DNA from: Emiliania huxleyi CCMP1516
Lineage: Eukaryota
Reading direction: 5' to 3'
Length of the DNA: 20,000 nt
Assembly: GCF_000372725.1 (NCBI RefSeq)
Contig: NW_005201551.1
Coordinates: 436,155-456,154, forward strand
Shown here: positions 1-19,861 of the stretch, one piece after another
Layout of the letters: each line of letters opens with the position of its first letter
Numbering within the stretch: the first letter of the stretch is position 1
Position numbers and translations under genes: made by a program
The notes under the pieces: model-generated
Database searches by the model: none
Told to the model about the DNA's origin: nothing
Seen by the model: only the letters and a program-made list of their open reading frames with translations

Positions 1-554
1 GTGGCAGTACGACCAGACGTCGTGGTCGGCGCGCGAATGGATGCCGTTTGCGCTGCAGCGACTGTCGGTGCAGCTCTGGACGGCGCTCGAGCGGACGAGG
101 CACAGCGCGCCATTATTGGTGCGGCGTCGCGCGGCCGCGAGGGACCGCAGGGGGGGGTAAGCGGGATCGGGGGCTCTAAGGGGAAGGGAGTGGGGGGCGC
201 CCAGTAGGGCGCCGGCACCCCAGCGTAGAGGGCCTCGTGTAGCCCTCCTTTTGGTATAATAAAACCGAGCCGGCGAGCGAGGTTCCGACCAACCCTTCTC
301 GAGAAAAGAATTTTGCGGCCACGCACGACAATAGGCAGCGTGCCGTCCTCCCATCCCTCCCTTGGGTTGTCCATCTTCTTTCTTTGTTTTACACTAGGCA
401 CGGGACTGGCGCGCACTAGCACTAACATCTTGATTTACCAACAATGCCCTTACTACACACAGGGGTTCGAGAAAAGAACTTTCCTACGTACTCGCTCGTT
501 ACACTCTCGAGGTATCGCAGTCGGCCCCGAAAGGCTTTGTGCCACCACAGCAGC

Positions 555-2939
555 ATGCGCAAACGCCGCACCATCCTCGTCGTCGGCGACTCCTTCTGCG
601 ACGTCAACGCCGGCCCACTGCCGCGCCTCCCAGAGTGGGGCCGCAACGTCGTCTCGCCAGAGCGGATCCTAGCCCAGCCAGGCGGAGCCGCGCTCAACGT
701 CGCCTGCAACCTGCAGCGGCTCCGAGGCGACACCGCTCTCTACTCGGGCATCGGTGAGCCGCTTCCAATCAGTCCGACTTCACACGGACACCACCGACTC
801 GACAGGCGGATCGACTCTCCTCCTCTCACACGGTGCATCTCTGGCCCAGGCCGCGATGCGTTTGGCGACATGCTGCGCGTCCACCTCGACTCGCTGGGTG
901 TTCGGCTGATCGAGGCGCGTTCGGGACTGTTGTAGACACCTGCCACCAAATGATGTGTGCTTCCCGGGCAGGCTTAACACTGGCCTGGGACGTAGCGGTG
1001 GATGCCGGCTAGACGCTTCGGCACTGCCCTGCTTCGACATTGCCCGGCTAGACGCTTCGACATTGCAACGCGCTCCTTCAGGCGGACTCGGACGAGGACG
1101 CGCCGACCGGCGTCTGCATGGTCCAGATTACCCGAGATTACCCGAGATTACCCGAGATTACGGCGTCTGCATAGTCCGAGGATCGGGTATCTCGGGTGAT
1201 CTCGGGTGATCTCGGCTAATCTCGGGCACGCAGCACAGGTCCTCTCCGGCCCCGACGACCGCGCCTTCTGCTCCCACTTCGGCGTCTCGGACGCCTTCGA
1301 CGCGTCCGCCCTCGTCGCCGACGGCGCCGCCTTGCTCCGGCGGTTGGGGCCTTGCCATGTCCACTGCGCGGGCTACTTCTCCTGCGCGGCGCTGCGGAAG
1401 ACTCTCCCTCGGCTGCTGCTGGCGGCGCGAGAGGTTGGCGCCACGACAAGCCTCGACACTAACAACGACGCGAGCGGACAGTGGGGCGCCGTGGACGGCC
1501 TGTGCGATGCTCTCTTGCCGCCGCTAGACTTCTTCACGCCTCTGGCTGTAAACAGGCGCCGTCGACGGCTTGTGGGATGCACTCTTGCCTCTGCCGGATC
1601 TCCGCGAAGAGGTGTGAGCAGCGCCTCGTCACGGCTTGCTCTGAGATGCACACAGGTCCTCTTGCCGCTGCTCGACCTCTTCACACCGAACGAGCTCGAG
1701 GCGTGCGCCGTCGCGGGCGTGACTATTAGTTAATTAACCCTACGAGGGCGTCACTAGTGATTAATTAACGAGCTCGAGGCGTGCGCCGTCGCGGGCGTGC
1801 CGGCCGGCGACGTCGAGGCCGCCCTCGCCCGGCTGTCGCGGCAGGTAAATTAGTGAATCGCTAATAATGAATTAGCTCTCGCCCGGCTGTCGCGGCAGGT
1901 AAATTAGTGAACACCAAAAATTAATCAGCTCTCGCCCGGCTGTCGCAGCAGGTAAATGAATGCATTTAGTTAATTAATGATTCACTAATGACTGCTGAAA
2001 AATTAATTAGCTCTCGCCCGGCTGTCGCAGCAGGTAAAGCAAGACTGATTACTCTTTAATAAGCTCTCGCCTGGGTCGCGGCAGGTAAATTAGTGAACAC
2101 TAATTAGCTGTCGCGGCAGGTCGGCGGCAGCGTCGTCATCACGCGCGGGCGGGACGGGGCGAGATATACCCGAGATATACCCGAGATATACCCGAGATAT
2201 ACCCGAGATATACGCGAGATATGCCCGAGATATACCCGAGATACGGGGCGCGACGGCCGGCGGTCGGTCGACCCGAGATCTATCCCGAGATGTACACGAG
2301 ATCTATCCCGAGGTGTAGGCGCTTGTCGGCGGGCGGTCGGTGGAGACGAGAGCTGTCTCCGCTCCGCCGGTCGTCGCTCGCGACGCGGTGGGCGCTGGCG
2401 ACGCCTTCAAGGCCCCGCCCGCGCCATGACTAGTCAATTAATGTTTACTTCATTATTCATGAACGAGTTGGCGACGCCTGGCCAGGCTGGCCTGCTCGCT
2501 TGCTTCGTCTCTGGAGCAGACCTGGCCGAGGCGGCGCAGTACGGCTGCCTCACCGGCGCTAATTAATATCAAGTGGAGCTGATGACAGCTTAATATTTAA
2601 TTAGGCGGCGCAGTACGGCTGCCTCACCGGCGCTCTCTGCGTCACGACACGCGGCGCCTGCTCGCACCCTCCCGCCGCTACACCTCGGCTGCATCTCGGC
2701 TGCATCTCGGCTGCATCTCGGCTGCATCTCGGCTGCATCTCCCCTGTCCAGGCGCCTGCTCGGACCCTCCCGACGGGGCGCGTGTCGCCGCCTTCGCCGC
2801 GCAGCATGGGCTCTCCTCGGTCGCTTCCGCCCTCCCGGCTTGCGGCGGCTCGAGCTCTGCTGCAGACGGCGACGGGCAGCAGCAGGAAGAGGGGCGGAGC
2901 GAGCGGGAGGAGCGGGCCGCTGTGCCTGCTGATGACTGA
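555..2939 (+). CDS. PfkB/ribokinase-family carbohydrate or nucleoside kinase, multi-exon; probably the N-terminal half of a kinase-ENT fusion
   Basis: Manual exons 555-753, 850-914, 1082-1120, 1239-1485, 1556-1578, 1656-1700, 1779-1844, 2120-2158, 2319-2411, 2486-2530, 2605-2653 and 2752-~2921 splice in frame. They give PfkB motifs in the expected order: ILVVGDSFCD, PGGAALNVA (signature 1), GIGRDAFG, PTGVCMV, SLDTN, FTPNELEA, VVITRGRDGA, DAVGAGDAF (signature 2) and GALCVTTRGA. If the next intron is not removed, the frame stops at TGA 2937-2939. Exon choice between 1486 and 1655 is ambiguous. Confidence 0.9.
1126..1226. repeat. Intronic 10-bp tandem repeats in inverted arrangement: (CCCGAGATTA)n ... 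(ATCTCGGGTG)n
   Basis: About 3 copies of cccgagatta at 1131-1160 and about 4 reverse-complement-like copies at 1189-1226, inside intron 1121-1238. Confidence 0.9.
1824..2121 (+). repeat. Tandem copies of the exon end plus donor (ctcgcccggctgtcgcggcag|gtaaat) separated by AT-rich spacers
   Basis: The exon copy ends at 1844. Internal copies start near 1876, 1929, 2011 and 2064, and a truncated copy forms the acceptor at 2119. Confidence 0.9.
2161..2312 (+). repeat. Intronic 10/11-bp tandem repeat (CCCGAGATATA)n and variants
   Basis: About 8 direct copies at 2161-2243 and degenerate copies out to 2312. Confidence 0.9.
2684..2741 (+). repeat. Intronic 11-bp tandem repeat (CTCGGCTGCAT)n
   Basis: Five copies inside intron 2654-2751. 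Confidence 0.9.
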
Positions 2940-2977
2940 TTGTTCCTAGTCCATGGATGGTTGATAGTTGGTAGTAG

Positions 2978-4836
2978 GAGGGGTTCCTGTGGTGGACCTT
3001 TGCGCTGTTGTGGTTGGGAGGTACCTGGCCGTCTAGAGCAGAGGCAGCTGTCACGTTTGTTGATGCTCGGTGAGTACTTGCTGATTACCGTCAGGCACCT
3101 GGCCGTACCAGAGCATTCTTCAGGCCCAGGCCTACTACGAGGCAGAGCTGCCCGGCCTCTCACATTAGTTAGTCAATCAATAACTATAATTGACTAATCA
3201 CGAGTTCGAGGCGGAGCTGCCCGACCTCGCCTTTCTCGTGCTGATGACCTTCTCGTGGCCGCTCGTCGCAGGGCACGCGGCGCAGGTCCTCTCGGGTAAT
3301 CTCGGCTAATCTCGGGTAATCTCGGGTGATCTCGGGTGATCTCGAGCACGCGTCGCAGGTCCTCTCCTGCTTAGATAACTAATTGCTTGCTGGATTCATG
3401 ATTAATGAAGTAATCCGCAGGTCCTCTCCGGCGCCGCAAAGGCCGCCCGCTTCTCCGCAAAATCATCGTTGTCTTATTTAGTAATGAGTGATCACTTATT
3501 ATGAATGAGTCAGGCCGCCGGCTTCTCGCGGCGCGTCCTCGGCGCGTGTTGCGTCAACGCCGCCGTCGGCGTCGCCTTTCTGCTGCAGGACGCGGCGCCT
3601 CTGTTCACACCTCTGCTTCACACCTCCTCTTCACACCTCCTCTTCACACCTCTGCTGCAGGACGCGGCGCCTCTGTCGCCCGGCGGCCGGCGAACCGCGA
3701 TGACTATCCTCGCGGCCCTCGTCGCGCTGGCGCGGCTGCTGCGCTCTCGAGCTTCTCTCGGAGATCGCCCCGGAGATCGCGCGAGATCGCCCGAGATTAG
3801 GCGCAGCTGCTGCTCGAGCCGGCCTTGTTCGGCCTCGCCACGTGCTCTCCCCGCGGCAGCGCCACGCAGGCGAGGATCTCCCGAGATCGCCCGAGATCGC
3901 CCGAGATCGCCCGAGGTCACCGGAGATCACCGGAGATGAGGCAGTGCCACGCAGGCGATGATGGTGGGGAACGCGTCCGCCGGCGTCGTCGTCGTCGCGG
4001 CCAGCGCGCTCACGCGCCTCGCGGCGGGTGGCGCGGCGCCGTCTGGCGCGCAGCTCGGCATCGCTGCGCGCGCCTTCTTCGGCCTGCAGGTGGCGTCGAG
4101 CGCCGCGTCGTGCGCGCTCTACCTCGTGGCGCTGCGCCGCTCGCCGCGCCTCCTCGCCGCTGCCCGAGGAGCGGGGCGACGAGGAGCCGCCTCGAGCGCC
4201 TCTGCGATTGGCTCGCCGCTGCTGACGCCGGACGTGGCGCGCGGCGCGGGCGAGGCGCCGCCACGCTCGGGGTGGCGAGAGAGGGGCGCTGCGGTGCGCG
4301 CCGCGGCAGGCGCGGTCTGGCTGCCGGCGGCTTGCCAGGCGCTCTGCTTTGGCACCACGCTCGCCGCTTGGCCGAGCATCCCCGGCGCCGCGTGCGTCGA
4401 GGGCGGCCTCGCACGCTTGGGCCAGGGCTGGTGGTTCACGCTCGTGGTGCTCGTGTACAACGTCGTCGACTTCGCCGCCCGGCTGCACCTCCCCCTCCTG
4501 CAGCGGCTCGCCGCCCGCGCTCGCCCGCGCTCTTGCCTCGCTGCGTGCGCCGCCCGCACGCTGCTGGTGCCGCTCATCTACGCGTGCGTCCGCCCGCGCC
4601 TTGTCCACGGCATGGGCGGCAACGTCGTCTTGCTGCTCGCCACGGCGCTGCTCGCGCTGAGCAACGGCGTCCTCGCCACCGCGTCGATGATGCAGGTCGC
4701 GCGACTCGCGCCGGAGGAGCTGAGGGAGGAGGGGGTCGACGTCGCCGTCGCGGGAGTCTACTTCGGACTCGCGGCGGGCGCGACCGTCAGCTGGGCGGTG
4801 GGGCGGGCGATGCAGCTGCCGCTCGCGTGTGGGTGA
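2978..4836 (+). CDS. Equilibrative nucleoside transporter (SLC29/ENT family), multi-exon; probably the C-terminal half of the same gene
   Basis: Manual exons 2978-3020, 3095-3141, 3211-3285, 3421-3441, 3514-3588, 3661-3729, 3801-3869 and 3955-4836. The translation has ENT-like segments: TM1 FLWWTFALLWLGGTWPYQSILQAQAYYE, EPALFGLA...ATQAMMVGNASAGVV, WFTLVVLVYNVVDFAAR, ARTLLVPL, LLALSNGVLATASMM and EEGVDVAVAGVYFGLAAGATVSW. No in-frame ATG lies upstream of TM1. Confidence 0.85.
3291..3345 (+). repeat. Intronic 10-bp repeat (CTCGGGTAAT/CTCGGGTGAT)n
   Basis: About 5 copies inside intron 3286-3420; same family as 1189-1226. Confidence 0.85.
3759..3937 (+). repeat. Intronic 10-bp repeats (CCGAGATCGC)n in two adjacent introns
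   Basis: Arrays at about 3759-3798 and 3875-3937. Confidence 0.85.
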
Positions 4837-6010: not shown

Positions 6011-6602
6011 CCCGCGTTACCGTCCACTCGGCGGGGTCGCAGCTGCCTCTGGAAGGCACCGAGATGTACCTTTTTCGCGCAATGGTCAAAATCAAGGTTT
6101 TGTAACGCGAGCTGTGCCACAGTGAAATGGAACTAGCCACGGCGCCTTCTACGCACTCTGTCAGCCGTCCCCGCGTGAGGTGCGCCTCCGGCCTCAGGCC
6201 CTCTGCGCTCTCTGCCCACAGCACAGCCCGTTCGAGAACCCCAGGCCTCAGGCAGTGCCCCAACCCCCATCCATCTCGACTGTCTCTCGGTTGTGTGTCT
6301 CTCGCCCAACCCAGCCCCTACCCCCACCTCTCGCCCGCCCTCTCGCCCGCTCCCTCTCGCCACACTTCCCTCTCGCCCGCCGCGGCGCGCTCCTCTCCCA
6401 CGTGCGCCTATAGAACCCCCCAACCCCCCATCCCCCCCCCCCCCCCCCACACCCATACCCCCATCCCGCGCAACCCGCGCGCGCCCGGCACCGTCGCAGT
6501 ACGGCGTGCTCCGCAGCCGCAGGGTCTGTTGCTCTCTGCCGTGCTCGCGCGGCGGTCCCGCCGGGCCCCGCGCCCTCGCCGCCCGGCCGGGGCTGGAGAG
6601 GC

Positions 6603-7882
6603 TCAGTAGAGGATGATGCCGCGCTCCTCGCACACGGCCACCAGCTCAGGCTGCTCCGTGTTGTCCACCTCGAGGTACTGCACGCGAGGGGAGGTGCGAT
6701 GAGCATTGGGCGGGGGAGGGGCGTGTGGCGAGGGGGAGCGTCTCGCGCCTTCAAGCTCGGGGCGGCCCCCTCCTTGAGGGCGGCGGCCAGCGCCTTGCAG
6801 CCCTCGTCGCCAATCTTGGTTTCGTCGAGATAGAGCCCCTTGAGCCGCGGCGCTGCCCCCTCCTTGCCGAGGGCGGCGGCCAGCGCCTTGCAGCCCTCGT
6901 CGCCAATCTTGTTGTCGTTGAGATAGAGCGTCTCGAGCCGCGGCGCTGCCCCGCTCGCGAGGACCTCCGCCAGCTTCGCCGCCTCCGCGTCGCCCCAGCC
7001 GAGGCCGGCGTAGACCAGCTTGGTCGCCTTTCCAAACTGCTCCTCGAAGGCGGCCTCGTACAGCCGCTTCACCAGCGGCTTGTCGTCCTTGCCGTTGGTG
7101 AAGCTCTTCGTCTCCAGCTCCGCCGCGAACGCAGACGGCAGCAGCGGAGGGCGCCGGCCGCCGTCCTCGGTGCAGTCGTCGACGAGGCTGCCGTAGCTGT
7201 ACTCCACGCCGGCGCGCATCTTGCCGAGGTCGAGCGAGAGGTGGCCAGCCTTTGTCAGGCCCGCCCAGCTGCACTCCGTGTAGCACCAGCCGCGGTCAAA
7301 GTACTTGGCCACGTTGGTGCCCTCGGCCTGATCCTCCGCCTTGTGGCCGTCCGGGAAGGAGGTCAGCCGCAGCACCCAAGTGTGCTGGTGGGAGTAGAGC
7401 GTGCCGAGGCAGCCCAGCCCCTCCTTGAAGAGCGCGTTCTGCTCGTCAGTGCGCAGGACGCCGTTGGGGGGGTCGGGGTGCTGGTGGAGCGAGCCGAAGT
7501 CCCAAAAGACGCCGAGCCGCGTGATGTACGGATGGCTGAGCAGGGCCTTGAGCGCCCTCGCGACGCGGGCGAGGTTGGCTCCGCGCGGGTCGGGGTGGTC
7601 CTTGGTCAGCCACGGGTAGGAGAGCGCGGCGACGGGAAGCCACTCCGCATACCCGATGGTCGCCTCGACGAGGTCGGCGAAAGAGAGGAAGGCCTCTTCG
7701 GGCAGCGCCTGGCGGTGGGTGAGGACGCCGCCCGCCTCGGCGTGGCGGATGATCCACTGCGCGTCGAGGAGGGCGACGGCGCCGCTCGCGAGGACACGCT
7801 CCAGGTCGCCGCCGCCCCACTTGCGCCACAGCTCCAGCTTCTCCTCGTAGGTCAGGCCCGGCTTGCTCGTGCCGCAGCCCAT
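6603..7882 (-). CDS. HET-like domain + ribonuclease-inhibitor-type LRR protein with predicted N-terminal acylation; 2 exons (7882-6749, 6677-6603)
   Basis: Starts MGCGTSKP (Gly2/Cys3). HET-like motifs occur in order: ALSYPW...HPDP, VFWDFGSLHQ, LGTLYS, YFDRGWCYTE. C-terminal LRRs read LETLYLNDNKIGDEGCKALAAAL and LKGLYLDETKIGDEGCKALAAAL. A GC-AG intron at 6748-6678 joins ...APSLK to YLEVDNTEQPELVAVCEERGIILY*. Confidence 0.85.
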
Positions 7883-7975
7883 CGCTTCGTCTGCCTGTGT
7901 AAGGCCGATATGTGTATCTGTGTCCGGGAAGGCGATCGACTTTGAGCACCTGTGTACTCTGTGTCCAAGGCGTAC

Positions 7976-8354
7976 TATGAGGGGCGAAGTGAAGTGGGAA
8001 CAGTGAATGCGGAAGGGGGAAGGCAGAAGTGGGCACAGCGAAGTGCAAAGTGGAAACCACAAACGCCACGCAGCAACTCAGAAGTCAACCGCAACAAGTC
8101 AGAAGTCGCTTTTCAGATGTCCTAAGTGCAAACCACGAACTGCGTAAGGAACGTGGAACTGCCAACAACAAACCTACGCGGAACTCGGAAGGCCGGAACA
8201 CAGAAGTGCAAACACACAAGTTGAAGTCAGAAGTGCCATATGTAAAATGCGAAAGTAGAAGGGTAAACAGTGAACTGCGAAACCAAAAAGCTCAAAGCAA
8301 GAATGCAAAACTCAATCTCCAAACAGTGAATTTGGAAACCCAAAGCTCGAAGTG
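7976..8354 (+). repeat. Left terminal inverted repeat (~380 bp)
   Basis: Reverse-complement match to 11281-11707; A-rich with many GAAGT(G/C) motifs. Confidence 0.9.
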
Positions 8355-8668
8355 CGAAGTGACAAAGGAAACACAACTCTGCTTCAACCTCCGCCACCGA
8401 GCACAGAGATGGCGAGCCTGACGCTACCGCATGGCCGAGCAGCGAGCAGTAACTAACCATTCGTGTTGAATTGCCTTATCCGTTATCGCTTATCGACAAA
8501 CGGGGATTTTAAGTGTTGGAGAGTGTGAACTCAAACCTACTTCCTGACCGTAGCCTGACCGTCCTTACGGTGGCCGGAGCACCACCCACTAGCTGCATGA
8601 TCACCGGCCGATCACCTGGTCACCGATCACCGGCCTTTGGAGAGTTGTATAGGACTTATCTATTCAGA

Positions 8669-9901: not shown

Positions 9902-11230
9902 TCACACGAACTGCAGGAACTCTTCGTATGCATCTATAAAGGCGTCATAGTCGCCATTGACAATGTCTGTGTATGCCTCCTCCGTGTCTCCACCTAGCAG
10001 CCTGTGGACGCGCGCAGCGCGCCGGGCCCGTGCGTTGGGTCGCCCGAGGAGCGTCTCAGCGGAGCGCACAAACGCGGGGACTCGAGGGAGCCGCTGCCCA
10101 CGCGCCTGCTCGTACTCTCTCGCACCGTCGAAGTTCGGCGGGAGAACAAGCTGCCCGCCTGGGTGCGGATCTCGCGCTGCGCGCTGGGCGGGGATGCCGC
10201 CGGTGCCGGGGCATCCGGTGCGCCCGGCGATGGAGTGCTGGTTCCACGACGCCTTGAGCAGGTCTAGTCCGGCCTGCACAAGGGGCGTGGCCACCGACGA
10301 GAAGGCGTGCACCTCCTGCGCGTCGTTCTTGTCGAGGAGGTCATTCTCTTCCATAAAGTTGATGAGGCGACGGAAGTGCACCAACACGCGCATGTTCACC
10401 TCGCGGTTGAAGCGCTCGACTGGTGTCTAAACGGTACAAGAGCAGGGGTTAGAGAGAGTGGTGCAGCGGACGCCGCAGAGCGGAGATACGCAAGCGACGT
10501 TGCGGGTGGACGGCACAAAGCGGTGCGCGGCGCGCCCGCCCGCGCGCCCAGCCCTGCGCGCGAGCAGCAGGCAGACAAAGGCGGCCACGTACCACTCCCG
10601 CCCTTTGTCAGTGACGATCTGGTCGGGCAGCGCGTCGGCTGCTAGGAAAGGCGCGACAAACTCCTCGTACACCGTGACGGGCAGCTTGTTCATAAGCGCT
10701 GTCAGTGAGTGCACAAAGCGAGTGCGCCCATCGATCGCTACTGCGACAAAGATGCGGTACTCCTGCAGCTTGCACGCCAAATCAATGTGCGTGGAGTACA
10801 TGAAGTACGGCGCGTGGTAGGCGCCGCGTTGAATCCTGCGGTAGCACCAAGACCGGCGGGCGTCGCTCGCCGCAGGGTCAACTGCGCGCAGCGCCGCCTG
10901 CACCGCCTCGCGCGGCCAGCGCCAGTCGGGGTGGTGCGCTTTCAGCACTCCGAGCAGCATCTTGTAGCCGTAATTCGCGCCGTGGCGCGTTACCTCGAAG
11001 TTCACGATGTCGTTGAAGCGTGGGTGAAGCGGAAGCAGCCGCTCGCGGCCCGAGAGGCCAGCCGCAGCCACGACTTGCTGCACGCGCCGCCGCGTGAGGC
11101 CAGTGAGCGCAGCCACACGCGCCGTGTCGCGCGAATGCGCAAAGAGGTCGAGGATGTTGGCGCGGCTCGAGCCGTGGTCAAGGGTGGGTGCAGCGGTGCA
11201 CGCGGCAGCAAGGAGCAGCGCGCCGTGCAT
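9902..11230 (-). CDS. DDE transposase / integrase core domain protein, ~418 aa, 2 exons (11230-10499, 10426-9902)
   Basis: N-terminal HTH-like segment (TARVAALTGLTRRRVQQVV), then YGYKMLLGVL, AVDP...RRIQRGAY, HIDLACKL (D1), AIDGRTR, PDQIVTDKGRE (D2), STRN|TPVERFNREV (E) and WNQH. The GT-AG intron 10498-10427 (72 bp) restores the frame. Confidence 0.9.
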
Positions 11231-11280
11231 GACGAGAGTGGCCGATCGCCGAAGTCTGTGGCTTCTGTGCTTTGCTTTCT

Positions 11281-11707
11281 CACTTCGAGCTTTTGGTTTC
11301 GCAGTTCTCTGTTTAGCCTTCTAATTTCGCATTTTACATTTTACACATGGCACTTCTGACTTTTGGAGATTGAGTTTTGCATTCTCACTTCGAGCTTTTG
11401 GTTTTGCAGTTTTCTGTTTAGCCTTCTACTTTCGCATTTTACGTATGCCACTTCTGACTTCAACTGTGTGTTTGCACTTCTGCACAACGGCCTTCCAAGT
11501 TCCGCGCAGCTTTGCTGTTGGCAGTTCCACGTTCCTCACACGGTTAGTGGTTTGCACTTAGGACATGACGGAAGCGACTTCTGACTTGTTGCGGTTGACT
11601 TTGGAGTTGCTAACTAGCGTTTGTGGTTTCTACTTTGCACTTCGCTGTGCCGACTTCTGCCTTCCCCCTTACGCATTCACTGTTCCCACTTCACTTCGCC
11701 CCTCATA
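11281..11707 (-). repeat. Right terminal inverted repeat (~430 bp) with an internal ~80-bp duplication
   Basis: Matches the left TIR; segment 11279-11362 is repeated at 11385-11460. Confidence 0.9.
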
Positions 11708-11802
11708 GGCGTACTTTGCAAAGGACACAGGTGGAAAAGTATTATCCTACGGGTGTGGGGGCGCGGAGGGCTTGTTGGCGAGCCAAAATGGTGTTTTCCG
11801 AG

Positions 11803-15996: not shown

Positions 15997-16370
15997 GGGC
16001 GCCGGCCACCGCTTTATTGCGAGGGCAAAAACGGCGGCTTTCCAACGGGCGGCGGAATGCAAGGGCCACGGTGGGGCTTGTGCCGGCCGCCAAGGTGCCC
16101 CAACGGAGGAGGCCCCGGCGACGGGTTTAAGGGCTTCCGGCGCGAAGGGCGGAAACGAAGGTGGCGGTGGGGAGGGCGGCTGCGACGGGGGAGGAGGCGA
16201 GGGCGGCTCGAGACCACGCGTGCACGCGGTCCCAAGGTTTTTTCTTTTTCGGTTTGCTCTGGTAGTCCTCCTCATCGACGCCACATTCAATCAGAGCCTG
16301 CGAGGTTAACCGAGACCGTGCTCTTCGAGCCGACGGCGTGTCGTGTTGTGCGAGGCTACGTGTGCGACGA

Positions 16371-19306
16371 CCGGCAGGCGCGGTTACCTCGGTTACCTAG
16401 ATGTCACGGTCATCGCCGGGGGCAGGCGAGCGCGGCAGCGCGCGCGGCAGCGCTGCCGGCAGGCACGTGCCTAGGAGTTACGGTGCGCCGGCATGCGCGG
16501 TTATCGGTTACCGAGATGTCACGGTCATCGCCGGGGGCAGGCGAGCGCGGCAGCGCGCGCGGCAGCGCTGCCGGCAGGCACGTGCCTAGGAGTTACGGTG
16601 CGCCGGTAGGCGCGGTTACCTCGGTTACCGAGATGTCACGGTCATCGCCTGGGGCAGGCGAGCGCGGCAGCGCGCGCGGCAGCGCTGCCGGCAGGCACGT
16701 GCCTAGGAGTGAAGGTGCGCCGGCAGGCGCGGTAACCTCGGTTACCGAGATGTTACGGTCATCGCCGGGGGCAGGCGAGCGCGGCAGCGCGCGCGGCAGC
16801 GCTGCCGGCAGGCACGTCCCTAGGAGTGAAGGTGCGCCGGTAGGCGCTGTCACGGGTTACCAAGATGTGACGGTCATCGCCGGGGGCAGGCGAGCGCGGC
16901 AGCGCGCGCGGCAGCGCTGCCGGCAGGCACGTCCCTAGGAGTGAAGGTGCGCCGGTAGGCGCTGTCACGGGGGTTACCAAGATGTGACGGTCATCGCCGG
17001 GGGCAGGCGAGCGCGGCAGCGCGCGCGGCAGCGCTGCCGGCAGGCATGTGCCTAGGAGTGAAGGTGCGCCGGCAGGCGCTGTCACGGGTTACCAAGATGT
17101 GACGGTCATCGCCGGGGGCAGGCGAGCGCGGCAGCGCGCGCGGCAGCGCTGCCGGCAGGCATGTGCCTAGGAGTGAAGGTGCGCCGGTAGGCGCTGTCTT
17201 CGGTTACCAAGATGTCACGGTCATCGCCGGGGGCAGGCGAGCGCGGCAGCGCGCGCGGCAGCGCTGCCGGCAGGCATGTGCCTAGGAGTGAAGGTGCGCC
17301 GGCAGGCGCTGTCACGGGTTACCAAGATGTCACGGTCATCGCCGGGGGCAGGCGAGCGCGGCAGCGCGCGCGGCAGCGCTGCCGGCAGGCATGTGCCTAG
17401 GAGTGAAGGTGCGCCGGCAGGCGCTGTCACGGGTTACCAAGATGTCACGGTCATCGCCGGGGGCAGGCGAGCGCGGCAGCGCGCGCGGCAGCGCTGCCGG
17501 CAGGCACGTCCCTAGGAGTGAAGGTGCGCCGGTAGGCGCTGTCACGGGTTACCAAGATGTCACGGTCATCGCCGGGGGCAGGCGAGCGCGGCAGCGCGCG
17601 CGGCAGCGCTGCCGGCAGGCATGTCCCTAGGAGTGAAGGTGCGCCGGTAGGCGCTGTCACGGGCTACCAAGATGTCACGGTCATCGCCGGGGGCAGGCGA
17701 GCGCGGCAGCGCGCGCGGCAGCGCTGCCGGCAGGCATGTGCCTAGGAGTGAAGGTGCGCCGGCAGGCGCTGTCACGGGTTACCAAGATGTGACGGTCATC
17801 GCCGGGGGCAGGCGAGCGCGGCAGCGCGCGCGGCAGCGCTGCCGGCAGGCACGTCCCTAGGAGTGAAGGTGCGCCGGTAGGCGCTGTCACGGGGGTTACC
17901 AAGATGTGACGGTCATCGCCGGGGGCAGGCGAGCGCGGCAGCGCGCGCGGCAGCGCTGCCGGCAGGCATGTGCCTAGGAGTGAAGGTGCGCCGGCAGGCG
18001 CTGTCACGGGTTACCAAGATGTGACGGTCATCGCCGGGGGCAGGCGAGCGCGGCAGCGCGCGCGGCAGCGCTGCCGGCAGGCATGTGCCTAGGAGTGAAG
18101 GTGCGCCGGTAGGCGCTGTCTTCGGTTACCAAGATGTCACGGTCATCGCCGGGGGCAGGCGAGCGCGGCAGCGCGCGCGGCAGCGCTGCCGGCAGGCACG
18201 TCCCTAGGAGTGAAGGTGCGCCGGTAGGCGCTGTCACGGGTTACCAAGATGTGACGGTCATCGCCGGGGGCAGGCGAGCGCGGCAGCGCGCGCGGCAGCG
18301 CTGCCGGCAGGCATGTGCCTAGGAGTGAAGGTGCGCCGGCAGGCGCTGTCACGGGTTACCAAGATGTCACGGTCATCGCCGGGGGCAGGCGAGCGCGGCA
18401 GCGCGCGCGGCAGCGCTGCCGGCAGGCATGTGCCTAGGAGTGAAGGTGCGCCGGCAGGCGCTGTCACGGGTTACCAAGATATCACGGTCATCGCCGGGGG
18501 CAGGCGAGCGCGGCAGCGCGCGCGGCAGCGCTGCCGGCAGGCATGTGCCTAGGAGTGAAGGTGCGCCGGCAGGCGCTGTCACGGGTTACCAAGATGTCAC
18601 GGTCATCGCCGGGGGCAGGCGAGCGCGGCAGCGCGCGCGGCAGCGCTGCCGGCAGGCACGTCCCTAGGAGTGAAGGTGCGCCGGCAGGCGCTCACGGGTT
18701 ACCAAGATGTCACGGTCATCGCCGGGGGCAGGCGAGCGCGGCAGCGCGCGCGGCAGCGCTGCCGGCAGGCACGTCCCTAGGAGTGAAGGTGCGCCGGTAG
18801 GCGCTGTCACGGGTTACCAAGATGTCACGGTCATCGCCGGGGGCAGGCGAGCGCGGCAGCGCGCGCGGCAGCGCTGCCGGCAGGCACGTCCCTAGGAGTG
18901 AAGGTGCGCCGGTAGGCGCTGTCATGGGTTACCGAGATGTTACGGTCATCGCCGGGGGCAGGCGAGCGCGGCAGCGCGCGCGGCAGCGCTGCCGGCAGGC
19001 ACGTGCCTAGGAGTTACGGTGCGCCGGCAGGCGCGGTTACCTACCTCGGTTACCGAGATGTTACGGTCATCGCCGGGGGCAGGCGAGCGCGGCAGCGCGC
19101 GCGGCAGCGCTGCCGGCAGGCACGTGCCTAGGAGTTACGGTGCGCCGGCAGGCGTGGTTACCTCGGTTACCGAGATGTTACGGTCATCGCCGGGGGCAGG
19201 CGAGCGCGGCAGCGCGCGCGGCAGCGCTGCCGGCAGGCACGTGCCTAGGAGTTACGGTGCGCCGGTAGACGCTGTCTTCGGTTAAGGTGCGCAGGTAGGC
19301 GCTGTA
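16371..19306 (+). repeat. Subtelomeric (telomere-associated) satellite, 113-121 bp unit (mostly 115), 25 copies
   Basis: The unit GGTTACCAAGATGTCACGGTCATCGCCGGGGGCAGGCGAGCGCGGCAGCGCGCGCGGCAGCGCTGCCGGCAGGCAYGTSCCTAGGAGTGAAGGTGCGCCGGYAGGCGCTGTCACG was counted 25 times from 16399 to 19173. Confidence 0.97.
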
Positions 19307-19308
19307 TA

Positions 19309-19861
19309 GGTTAGGGTTAGGGTTAGGGTTAGGGTTAGGGTTAGGGTTAGGGTTAGGGTTAGGGTTAGGGTTAGGGTTAGGGTTAGGGTTAGGGTTAGGG
19401 TTAGGGTTAGGGTTAGGGTTAGGGTTAGGGTTAGGGTTAGGGTTAGGGTTAGGGTTAGGGTTAGGGTTAGGGTTAGGGTTAGGGTTAGGGTTAGGGTTAG
19501 GGTTAGGGTTAGGGTTAGGGTTAGGGTTAGGGTTAGGGTTAGGGTTAGGGTTAGGGTTAGGGTTAGGGTTAGGGTTAGGGTTAGGGTTAGGGTTAGGGTT
19601 AGGGTTAGGGTTAGGGTTAGGGTTAGGGTTAGGGTTAGGGTTAGGGTTAGGGTTAGGGTTAGGGTTAGGGTTAGGGTTAGGGTTAGGGTTAGGGTTAGGG
19701 TTAGGGTTAGGGTTAGGGTTAGGGTTAGGGTTAGGGTTAGGGTTAGGGTTAGGGTTAGGGTTAGGGTTAGGGTTAGGGTTAGGGTTAGGGTTAGGGTTAG
19801 GGTTATGGTTAGGGTTAGGGTTAGGGTTAGGGTTAGGGTTAGTCGTTAGGGTTAGGGTTAG
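19309..19861 (+). repeat. Telomeric repeat (TTAGGG)n, ~90 copies
   Basis: Near-perfect array with the G-rich strand pointing to the right end; variants (ttatgg, ttagtcg) appear only in the last 60 bp. Confidence 0.99.

What the first reader, a model, noticed from the sequence alone, without database searches (positions are those of the whole stretch)
555..4836. Putative PfkB kinase-equilibrative nucleoside transporter fusion protein
Seen: the kinase frame runs through a hydrophilic linker (GGSSSAADGDGQQQEEGRSEREE) to a stop at 2937-2939, only 38 bp before the ENT TM1 exon at 2978. The two ATGs in that gap hit stops almost at once, so the ENT has no start codon or room for a promoter. Three candidate donors (GA 2910, GC 2916, GT 2922) are all phase 0 and join acceptor tag|2978 in frame, giving ~786 aa. 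Established: PfkB includes ribokinase and adenosine, inosine and pseudouridine kinases, and ENTs are facilitators with a cytosolic N-terminus. Inference: a tethered kinase would phosphorylate and trap the imported nucleoside or sugar, turning a passive carrier into a group-translocation-like uptake system. I do not know of a characterised protein with this architecture.
Basis: partly seen in the sequence, partly recalled or inferred. Interest (0 to 1): 0.85.

Follow-up and report, generated by a model that had tools for sequence, protein, structure and literature searches.

The report
Algal nucleoside transporter with built-in kinase
In what is likely a haptophyte alga, spliced RNA joins a ribokinase-family kinase in frame to a nucleoside-transporter-family membrane protein, and related marine sequences carry the same fusion; the predicted single protein would likely phosphorylate and so trap what it lets into the cell.

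Summary
The fusion is real. RNA contigs from 4 of 4 runs (four studies) splice across the junction, removing a 68-nt intron (2910-2977, GA..AG) that contains the stop codon. Contig depth leaves no room for a retained-intron form. The 20-exon model gives 782 aa with no internal stop. Five other protein clusters carry full PF00294+PF01733 fusions (kinase 60-74%, ENT 55-67% identical), one as an intronless ORF. Four more clusters run from the kinase into ENT TM1. The kinase motifs and the ENT's ribose-binding Asp/Arg/Asn are intact. The linker is 40-111 aa and low-confidence in the model, so it looks like a loose tether and no docking is shown. Most likely function: facilitated import plus on-site phosphorylation (metabolic trapping). 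The substrate is open. The kinase fits no curated family, its profile's best solved match is E. coli YdjH, and its bacterial relatives sit in sugar operons. One Prymnesium kinase and one transcriptome ENT appear unfused. Six literature searches found no description of this architecture. New variant of a known kind; interest 0.62.

The parts
555..4836 (+). Fused gene, 20 exons, 782 aa: 555-753, 850-914, 1082-1120, 1239-1485, 1556-1578, 1656-1700, 1779-1844, 2120-2158, 2319-2411, 2486-2530, 2605-2653, 2752-2909, 2978-3020, 3095-3141, 3211-3285, 3421-3441, 3514-3588, 3661-3729, 3801-3869, 3955-4836
   Evidence: no internal stop; introns are 12 GC-AG, 5 GT-AG, 2 GA-AG. 13 of 19 introns appear in the joint table. 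The other six (1486-1555, 1579-1655, 1701-1778, 1845-2119, 2654-2751, 3142-3210) are inferred from contig pieces, contig lengths, frame and homology.
555..2817 (+). PfkB/ribokinase-fold kinase domain (about aa 1-326), with GDSFCD, PGGAALN, PTGVC, DRAF, SLDTNND, PNELE
   Evidence: PF00294 is 151-166 bits in the five homologues. The window's single exons hit PfkB weakly: E 4e-4 and 0.011, below the cut-off. Motif table; fold matches.
2391..2402 (+). GAGD anion-hole motif with the predicted catalytic base Asp269
   Evidence: GAGD in the window and 5 of 5 homologues. The catalytic role is established PfkB knowledge (recalled).
2818..2986 (+). Hydrophilic linker (coding 2818-2909 and 2978-2986), interrupted by the junction intron
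   Evidence: 40 aa from the last kinase helix to TM1 here, 42-111 aa in nine fused clusters. pLDDT is below 50 in the P0001 model.
2910..2977 (+). Junction intron, 68 nt, GA..AG, phase 0; holds the TGA at 2937-2939 and both short ATG frames
   Evidence: Spliced in X1, X2, X5 and X7. Depth in bin 2924-3087 equals contig depth x 43/164 in all four runs: predicted 33.74, 5.66, 10.17, 8.63; observed 33.7, 5.66, 10.2, 8.62.
2987..4833 (+). ENT/SLC29-family transporter domain (about aa 360-782), predicted 11 TM helices; Asp661, Arg665 and Asn726 align with hENT1 D341, R345 and N407; Glu472 aligns with Q158
   Evidence: PF01733 46.6 bits on the last exon, above the 29.8 cut-off. hENT1 6ob6 is the best PDB hit, E 3e-14. 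Helices read from the model of P0001; motifs.
3142..3210 (+). Partly retained intron; retention would give a 394-aa kinase+TM1 product ending ...YYEAELPGLSH
   Evidence: X2 record 9 and X7 record 21 keep it; X1 record 4 lacks it. P0133 matches the retained product.

Best explanation
One spliced transcript joins an N-terminal PfkB-family kinase in frame to a C-terminal ENT-family transporter; the predicted 782-aa protein likely lets a nucleoside or other ribose-bearing solute cross the membrane down its gradient, and the tethered kinase would likely phosphorylate it on the cytosolic side, trapping it. Steps: (1) Fusion transcript: shown. (2) Both domains folded with intact motifs: predicted from sequence and an AlphaFold model of a homologue. 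(3) Kinase in the cytosol, because the ENT N-terminus is cytosolic and the protein starts directly with kinase strand 1: inferred from established ENT topology (recalled). (4) Shared substrate and trapping: inferred. The phosphate ester cannot return through the carrier, which keeps the inward gradient steep at low external concentration. (5) The coupling works by local concentration on a flexible tether, not by obligatory hand-over: inferred from the linker. The fusion itself I put at about 0.97. The confidence given is for the whole mechanism with a nucleoside-type substrate at the cell surface.
For: Junction spliced in 4 of 4 runs with no retained form. Five full fused clusters (18 of 26 members read are full-length) and four more clusters spanning the junction: P0027, P0028, P0036, P0215. 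L003 holds the fusion as one intronless ORF. Nine fused kinases plus one Prymnesium kinase form a clade, FastTree support 99, among 113 rows. Model of P0001 has mean pLDDT 90.6. The ENT keeps D341/R345/N407 equivalents in the window and 5 of 5 homologues; these residues recognise ribose in hENT1 and PfENT1 (PMC10729961, PMC9168172, passages read). The kinase lacks ribokinase Lys43, which fills the nucleobase pocket (PMC7797080, passages read), and shares PTGxC, xR and AGF(Y/F) with adenosine kinases (alignments).
Against: No substrate is shown. The kinase reaches no NCBIfam cut-off: best 82-94 bits against cut-offs of about 300-420. The subfamily profile's best solved match is E. coli YdjH, 169 bits against 137 for the next. 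Bacterial relatives lie beside sugar genes: glycosidase, aldolase, SIS or GatZ in 6 of 12 loci, and no nucleoside hydrolase, phosphorylase or nucleoside transporter family among 55 ORFs tested. Fructokinase and YdjH also lack Lys43, so that feature is not diagnostic. The ENT base-side residues differ from hENT1: Q158->E, W29->Y. pTM is 0.64, so the domain orientation is not fixed. Possible unfused relatives: P0031 (kinase only, Prymnesium polylepis) and P0032 (ENT only, 'type:complete'). No contig spans the whole ORF, several other introns are partly retained, and contigs drop rare isoforms. The window's allele has Asp751 where all four RNA runs and 5 of 5 homologues have Tyr.
Confidence: 0.5

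Rival explanations
1. Same import-and-trap machine, but for a free sugar or sugar acid: the kinase keeps the sugar specificity of its bacterial relatives, and the ENT has been repurposed to carry that sugar using its ribose-binding residues.
For: YdjH is the best solved match for the subfamily profile and for P0031. Bacterial relatives neighbour GH4 (3 of 12 loci), class II or DeoC aldolase (3 of 12), GatZ/SIS (1 of 12) and ABC, SSF or MFS transporters (8 of 12). Two relatives are fused to GatZ or SIS. The model has a ribokinase-type lid without helices. The ENT base-side residues are changed.
Against: Those bacterial kinases are distant: 30-42% identical even to the bacterial-type query P0055. 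The ENT family is described as specific for nucleosides and nucleobases (bioRxiv 10.1101/2022.01.11.475817, passages read). Ribokinase-fold dimers include nucleoside kinases such as PUKI.
Confidence: 0.22
2. The protein sits on the vacuole or lysosome and salvages nucleosides released by RNA turnover as they are exported to the cytosol, rather than taking them up from seawater.
For: A [DE]xxxLL motif lies in the linker of 3 of 9 fused clusters and in P0029. ENTs occur on intracellular vesicles. Lysosomal targeting of hENT3 by such a motif is recalled, not checked.
Against: The motif is absent from the window's linker and from 6 of 9 fused clusters. No chance control was run.
Confidence: 0.13
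3. The two domains are fused but do not share a substrate. The fusion only ensures co-expression or anchors the kinase at the membrane, for example to act on ribose freed downstream by a nucleoside hydrolase.
For: The linker is unconserved, 40-111 aa. Possible unfused relatives exist. A retained intron would give a kinase+TM1 form.
Against: The fusion is kept across sequences only 48-64% identical in the ENT domain (the near-sister pair P0004/P0005 and P0001 with the window are higher). The two families act on overlapping chemistry.
Confidence: 0.1
4. Two adjacent genes; the join is read-through or an assembly artefact.
For: There is an in-frame stop at 2937-2939 in the DNA. Contigs cannot show transcript ends. 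Three of the four runs are only guessed to be RNA.
Against: The stop lies in an intron spliced in 4 of 4 runs, and those runs also lack the other introns. An intronless fused ORF exists in L003. There is no usable ATG before TM1.
Confidence: 0.02

Closest known systems
Equilibrative nucleoside transporters (SLC29, PF01733, TC 2.A.57; hENT1 6ob6, PfENT1 7wn0)
   Same: Best PDB sequence hits; predicted 11 TM helices; D341, R345, N407, G179 and P308 equivalents kept.
   Different: Carries a 326-aa N-terminal kinase. Q158->E and W29->Y. Scores 48-76 bits against the 297.5 cut-off of TIGR00939, so it is a divergent subfamily whose nearest stand-alone relatives include P0039 and P0042 (Lapot gusevi).
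PfkB kinases: E. coli YdjH (3h49/3in1), ribokinases (9zpu, 1rkd), adenosine kinases (1bx4), pseudouridine kinase
   Same: Fold (target TM-score about 0.8-0.86 to ribokinase and YdjH chains); GG..N, NxxE and GAGD motifs.
   Different: 20-29% identity. No Lys43. No helical adenosine-kinase lid. Belongs to an uncharacterised eukaryote/bacterial subfamily (SLDTNxD..W) whose Aphanomyces member is auto-named 'adenosine kinase'.
PnuC-NadR (nicotinamide riboside facilitator plus separate kinase); ENT plus adenosine kinase trapping; bacterial PTS (all recalled, not tested here)
   Same: Works like them: a passive carrier made effectively one-way by phosphorylation.
   Different: PnuC/NadR and ENT/ADK are separate proteins. 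PTS uses a PEP phosphorelay with obligatory coupling. Here an ATP-type kinase is covalently tethered to the carrier in a eukaryote.

Membership tests
PfkB / ribokinase superfamily (PF00294) | Pfam score above the curated cut-off | tested here: met
   151-166 bits against 25.8 in P0001-P0005. The window's spliced protein was not scanned; it is 60-74% identical to these.
PfkB / ribokinase superfamily (PF00294) | GAGD anion hole, NxxE motif, N-terminal Asp and GG..N | tested here: met
   All present in the window and 5 of 5 homologues.
PfkB / ribokinase superfamily (PF00294) | ATP-dependent kinase activity | not testable with these tools
   Needs an assay.
Ribokinase (TIGR02152) | Equivalog cut-off, and Lys43 in PGGKGAN | tested here: not met
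   75-94 bits against 299.65. PGGAALN in place of PGGKGAN.
Ribokinase (TIGR02152) | Glu143 in the sugar pocket | tested here: inconclusive
   HMMER alignments shift in this region. The equivalent stretch reads HCAG(F/Y)(F/Y) with no Glu.
Eukaryotic adenosine kinase | Large lid with helices; closest-match status | tested here: not met
   No helix in lid residues 20-49 of either model. No adenosine kinase among the Foldseek rows shown. Some pocket motifs are shared. The lid criterion is recalled.
Pseudouridine kinase (NF007355) | Equivalog cut-off | tested here: not met
   23-42 bits against 540.
ENT / SLC29 (PF01733) | Pfam score above cut-off; best structural-sequence relative is an ENT | tested here: met
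   46.6 bits against 29.8 on the window's last exon. 7 of 7 PDB hits of the ENT profile are ENTs.
ENT / SLC29 (PF01733) | 11 TM helices with a large loop after TM6 | tested here: met
   Counted from the secondary structure of the P0001 model; low-confidence loop 593-610. A simple hydropathy scan of the window found only 7 segments above 1.6, two of them overlapping.
ENT / SLC29 (PF01733) | Ribose-binding Asp341, Arg345, Asn407 | tested here: met
   Asp661, Arg665, Asn726; roles.
ENT / SLC29 (PF01733) | Base-binding Gln158 | tested here: not met
   Invariant Glu in 9 of 9 sequences.
ENT / SLC29 (PF01733) | Nucleoside or nucleobase transport | not testable with these tools
   Needs an uptake assay.
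Group translocation (PTS-like obligatory coupling) | Transport depends on phosphorylation; fixed kinase-carrier interface | tested here: inconclusive
   Long variable linker and pTM 0.64. No interface prediction was obtained and no activity data exist.

The most novel reading that the evidence does not exclude
A single-chain, ATP-driven group translocator in a eukaryote: the kinase docks on the cytosolic face of the ENT and receives the solute directly, so that transport is gated by phosphorylation. It would give haptophytes a high-affinity route to dissolved nucleosides or a specific sugar in seawater.
Probability: 0.15. Interest if true: 0.87.

Novelty: new variant of a known kind. Interest (0 to 1): 0.62.

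Why it matters
Metabolic trapping normally uses a carrier and a kinase that are separate proteins. Here they are on one chain, conserved across at least nine other marine sequence clusters, which gives a direct test of whether tethering raises uptake. The fusion also gives a handle on two orphan subfamilies: whatever one domain handles constrains the other. If the host group is haptophytes as inferred, it points to an unrecognised route for using dissolved organic N, P and C in abundant phytoplankton. It was probably overlooked because of 19 mostly non-canonical introns and a GA donor at the junction (inference; PMC4028052 reports that predictors miss such sites).

Tried and rejected
Gene structure:
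- Two separate genes: rejected.
- Donors GC 2916 and GT 2922: not the ones seen in RNA.
- A first intron set had several boundaries off by one or two bases and gave frameshifts; corrected.
- P0012 and P0014 look split, but the break lies after ENT TM1 and the C-terminus is also frameshifted, so I read it as an assembly indel, not a natural split.

Searches and trees that gave little:
- ENT tree: 12 of 14 inner branches are open, so it cannot place the unfused P0032 inside or outside the fused group.
- ESM Atlas: no usable hit for P0001; the kinase-only query got no answer.
- Viral contigs: 0 relatives among 67 pattern matches.
- Earlier scan findings: nothing in three look-ups.
- No whole genome is held, so copy number and paralogues could not be checked.

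Not obtained:
- Only 4 of the 15 listed runs were laid, so the other studies and a closer view of introns 1486-2119 remain open.
- The VIA structure search was not obtained.
- The YdjH characterisation paper and the hENT1 structure paper are not held.

Rows left out:
- 19 near-duplicate proteins, and all proteins covering under 250 aa of the kinase, were left out of the kinase tree.
- For neighbourhoods I scanned 55 of 106 ORFs, from 12 of 17 loci scoring 200 bits or more, out of 80 fetched.
- A PurK gene on the opposite strand in L006 was not counted as a nucleoside neighbour.

Literature searches that found no description of this fusion. One search (ENT residues) returned nothing. InterPro, TCDB and subscription journals could not be searched.
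Full report
Observation. The window is a eukaryotic subtelomeric stretch (TTAGGG from about 19310). No genome is held. I infer Emiliania/Gephyrocapsa huxleyi or a close haptophyte from two things. The splice pattern is 12 GC-AG, 5 GT-AG and 2 GA-AG, and PMC4028052 reports 56% GC donors, 4% GA donors and frequent intron retention in E. huxleyi (passages read). A Prymnesium polylepis kinase also falls in the same clade. No call names the organism.

RNA. Fifteen runs were listed, 14 holding 39-44% of the sampled words. I laid four, from four studies. One is on record as RNA and three are guessed to be. All four show the joint 2907->2976, skipping 68 nt, with 43 letters on the shorter side and 5 letters of ambiguity. 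Shifted by two, this is intron 2910-2977 (GA..AG), so the stop is intronic. Depth over 2924-3087 equals the spliced contig's depth times 43/164 in each run, so no contig retains this intron. X1 record 4 (1107 nt) equals the spliced length from 2751 to 4503. X2 record 9 (1770 nt) reaches by length from about 1692, upstream of GAGD, to 4797 while retaining intron 3142-3210. Limits: these are contigs, so they show no transcript ends and no rare isoforms, and none spans the whole ORF. 13 of 19 introns are in the joint table and six are inferred. Introns 1579-1655, 1845-2119, 2159-2318 and 3142-3210 appear retained in some contigs.

Model and homologues. The 20-exon model gives 782 aa without a stop and aligns end to end with five fused proteins of 805-874 aa. 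These were the only hits when the last ENT exon was searched against longer proteins (5 of 7990 candidates scored). Each carries PF00294 and PF01733 above cut-off. Identity to the window is 60-74% in the kinase and 55-67% in the ENT; only the linker and the post-TM6 loop vary freely. Of 26 cluster members read, 18 are full-length and none has a functional name. L003 encodes the fusion as one 939-codon stop-to-stop frame on a 7.8-kb contig, so the architecture does not rest on splice inference. P0027, P0028, P0036 and P0215 run from the kinase into ENT TM1 or beyond before leaving homology, probably at introns. In a 113-row FastTree, nine fused kinases and P0031 form one group (support 99) inside a wider uncharacterised subfamily that includes stand-alone oomycete and bacterial-type kinases. 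That is compatible with one fusion event; it is not a rooted test.

Against universality. P0031 (P. polylepis, 58-73% identical to the fused kinases) ends just after the kinase. P0032 is an ENT-only transcriptome ORF labelled complete. The P0029 cluster begins in linker-like sequence with no Met before TM1, and P0025 begins at TM1. These may be true unfused forms, paralogues, or gene calls cut at introns. I recall that records named like P0031 are ORFs called on genomic contigs without splicing, but I did not check this. The ENT tree does not resolve P0032.

Anatomy. The AlphaFold model of P0001 (106 sequences) has mean pLDDT 90.6 and pTM 0.64, with low confidence at 355-380 (linker) and 593-610 (loop). 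I count 11 membrane helices. The kinase matches ribokinase and YdjH chains. Catalytic motifs are intact in all six sequences. The ENT profile's 7 PDB hits are all ENTs. Asp661, Arg665 and Asn726 align with hENT1 D341, R345 and N407, which recognise ribose (PMC10729961 and PMC9168172, passages read; I mapped construct to native numbering by counting). Q158 is Glu and W29 is Tyr.

Substrate. The evidence is split. For a nucleoside: the partner is an ENT with its ribose site kept; the kinase lacks Lys43, which blocks the base pocket in ribokinases (PMC7797080, passages read); and it shares PTGxC, the lid Arg and AGF with adenosine kinases. For a sugar: no nucleoside-kinase equivalog is reached; YdjH is the best solved match; and 12 bacterial loci of the wider subfamily show glycosidases, aldolases, SIS/GatZ and sugar-type transporters but no nucleoside enzyme among 55 ORFs scanned. 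Those bacteria are distant, so this lowers the nucleoside reading without overturning it.

Mechanism. Shown: one in-frame transcript and a conserved fusion. Predicted: two intact domains on a flexible tether. Inferred: cytosolic kinase, shared substrate, and trapping by phosphorylation.

Comparison and novelty. It works like PnuC-NadR or ENT plus adenosine kinase (recalled), but on one chain. It is a member of PfkB and of ENT, and not of the ribokinase, adenosine kinase or pseudouridine kinase families. Six searches of the open literature found no description of the architecture (search listings seen). The one paper naming both E. huxleyi and ENTs has no occurrence of 'fusion', 'fused' or 'kinase' (passages read). 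PMC5742349 (passages read) was irrelevant. No supplements were read, and the bioRxiv paper's ENT table is an image. InterPro, TCDB and subscription journals were not searchable, so the architecture may be listed there uncharacterised.

Verdict: real, a new domain architecture built from two known families, function inferred. Interest 0.62.

Noticed in passing
window 4718 and 4738: All four RNA runs read Gly744 and Tyr751 where the window has Glu and Asp; Tyr is in 5 of 5 homologues. The window copy has either assembly errors or a weakened allele at the start of TM11.
   Followed up: partly
window 4445-4592 and 4746 onward: A second expressed ENT-like sequence, about 92% identical over 148 nt, with a 153-nt in-frame skip, in X1, X2 and X5: probably a paralogue elsewhere in the genome.
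   Followed up: no
window 2159-2318: In X5 and X7 the contig enters exon 2319 from inside this intron; those strains have a 22-nt insertion and T2316C. X1 and X2 splice it. Possibly strain-specific retention.
   Followed up: no
window 3142-3210: Retained in X2 and X7 contigs and in Logan protein P0133; would give a 394-aa kinase with one TM helix.
   Followed up: partly
window 1486-3954 (introns): Most introns begin with a degenerate copy of the next exon's start (e.g. 1692/1770, 2530/2604, 3585/3657, 3861/3946), often followed by TAATTA-rich or CCGAGAT-type repeats, suggesting intron gain by tandem duplication. The homologue in L003 has no introns.
   Followed up: no
window 6248-7882 (-): ORF starting MGCGTSKPG (myristoylation-like, recalled) with LRR_6 repeats.
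   Followed up: partly
window 9902-11230 (-): Two ORFs; the upstream one has an integrase core (PF24764, E 2e-6), flanked by similar non-coding sequence at about 7970-8400 and 11270-11710 in opposite orientation: a transposon-like element.
   Followed up: partly
window 16340-19860: About 120-nt subtelomeric tandem repeats, then a TTAGGG telomere array followed by about 140 nt of other sequence.
   Followed up: no
P0053, P0106, P0147, P0155: The same kinase subfamily is also fused to RRM domains (two proteins), a SIS domain and a GatZ/KbaZ domain.
   Followed up: no
L004:2282-4303: A metagenome contig holding the same gene's kinase half with introns, 92% identical to window 541-2560 including gaps.
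   Followed up: partly
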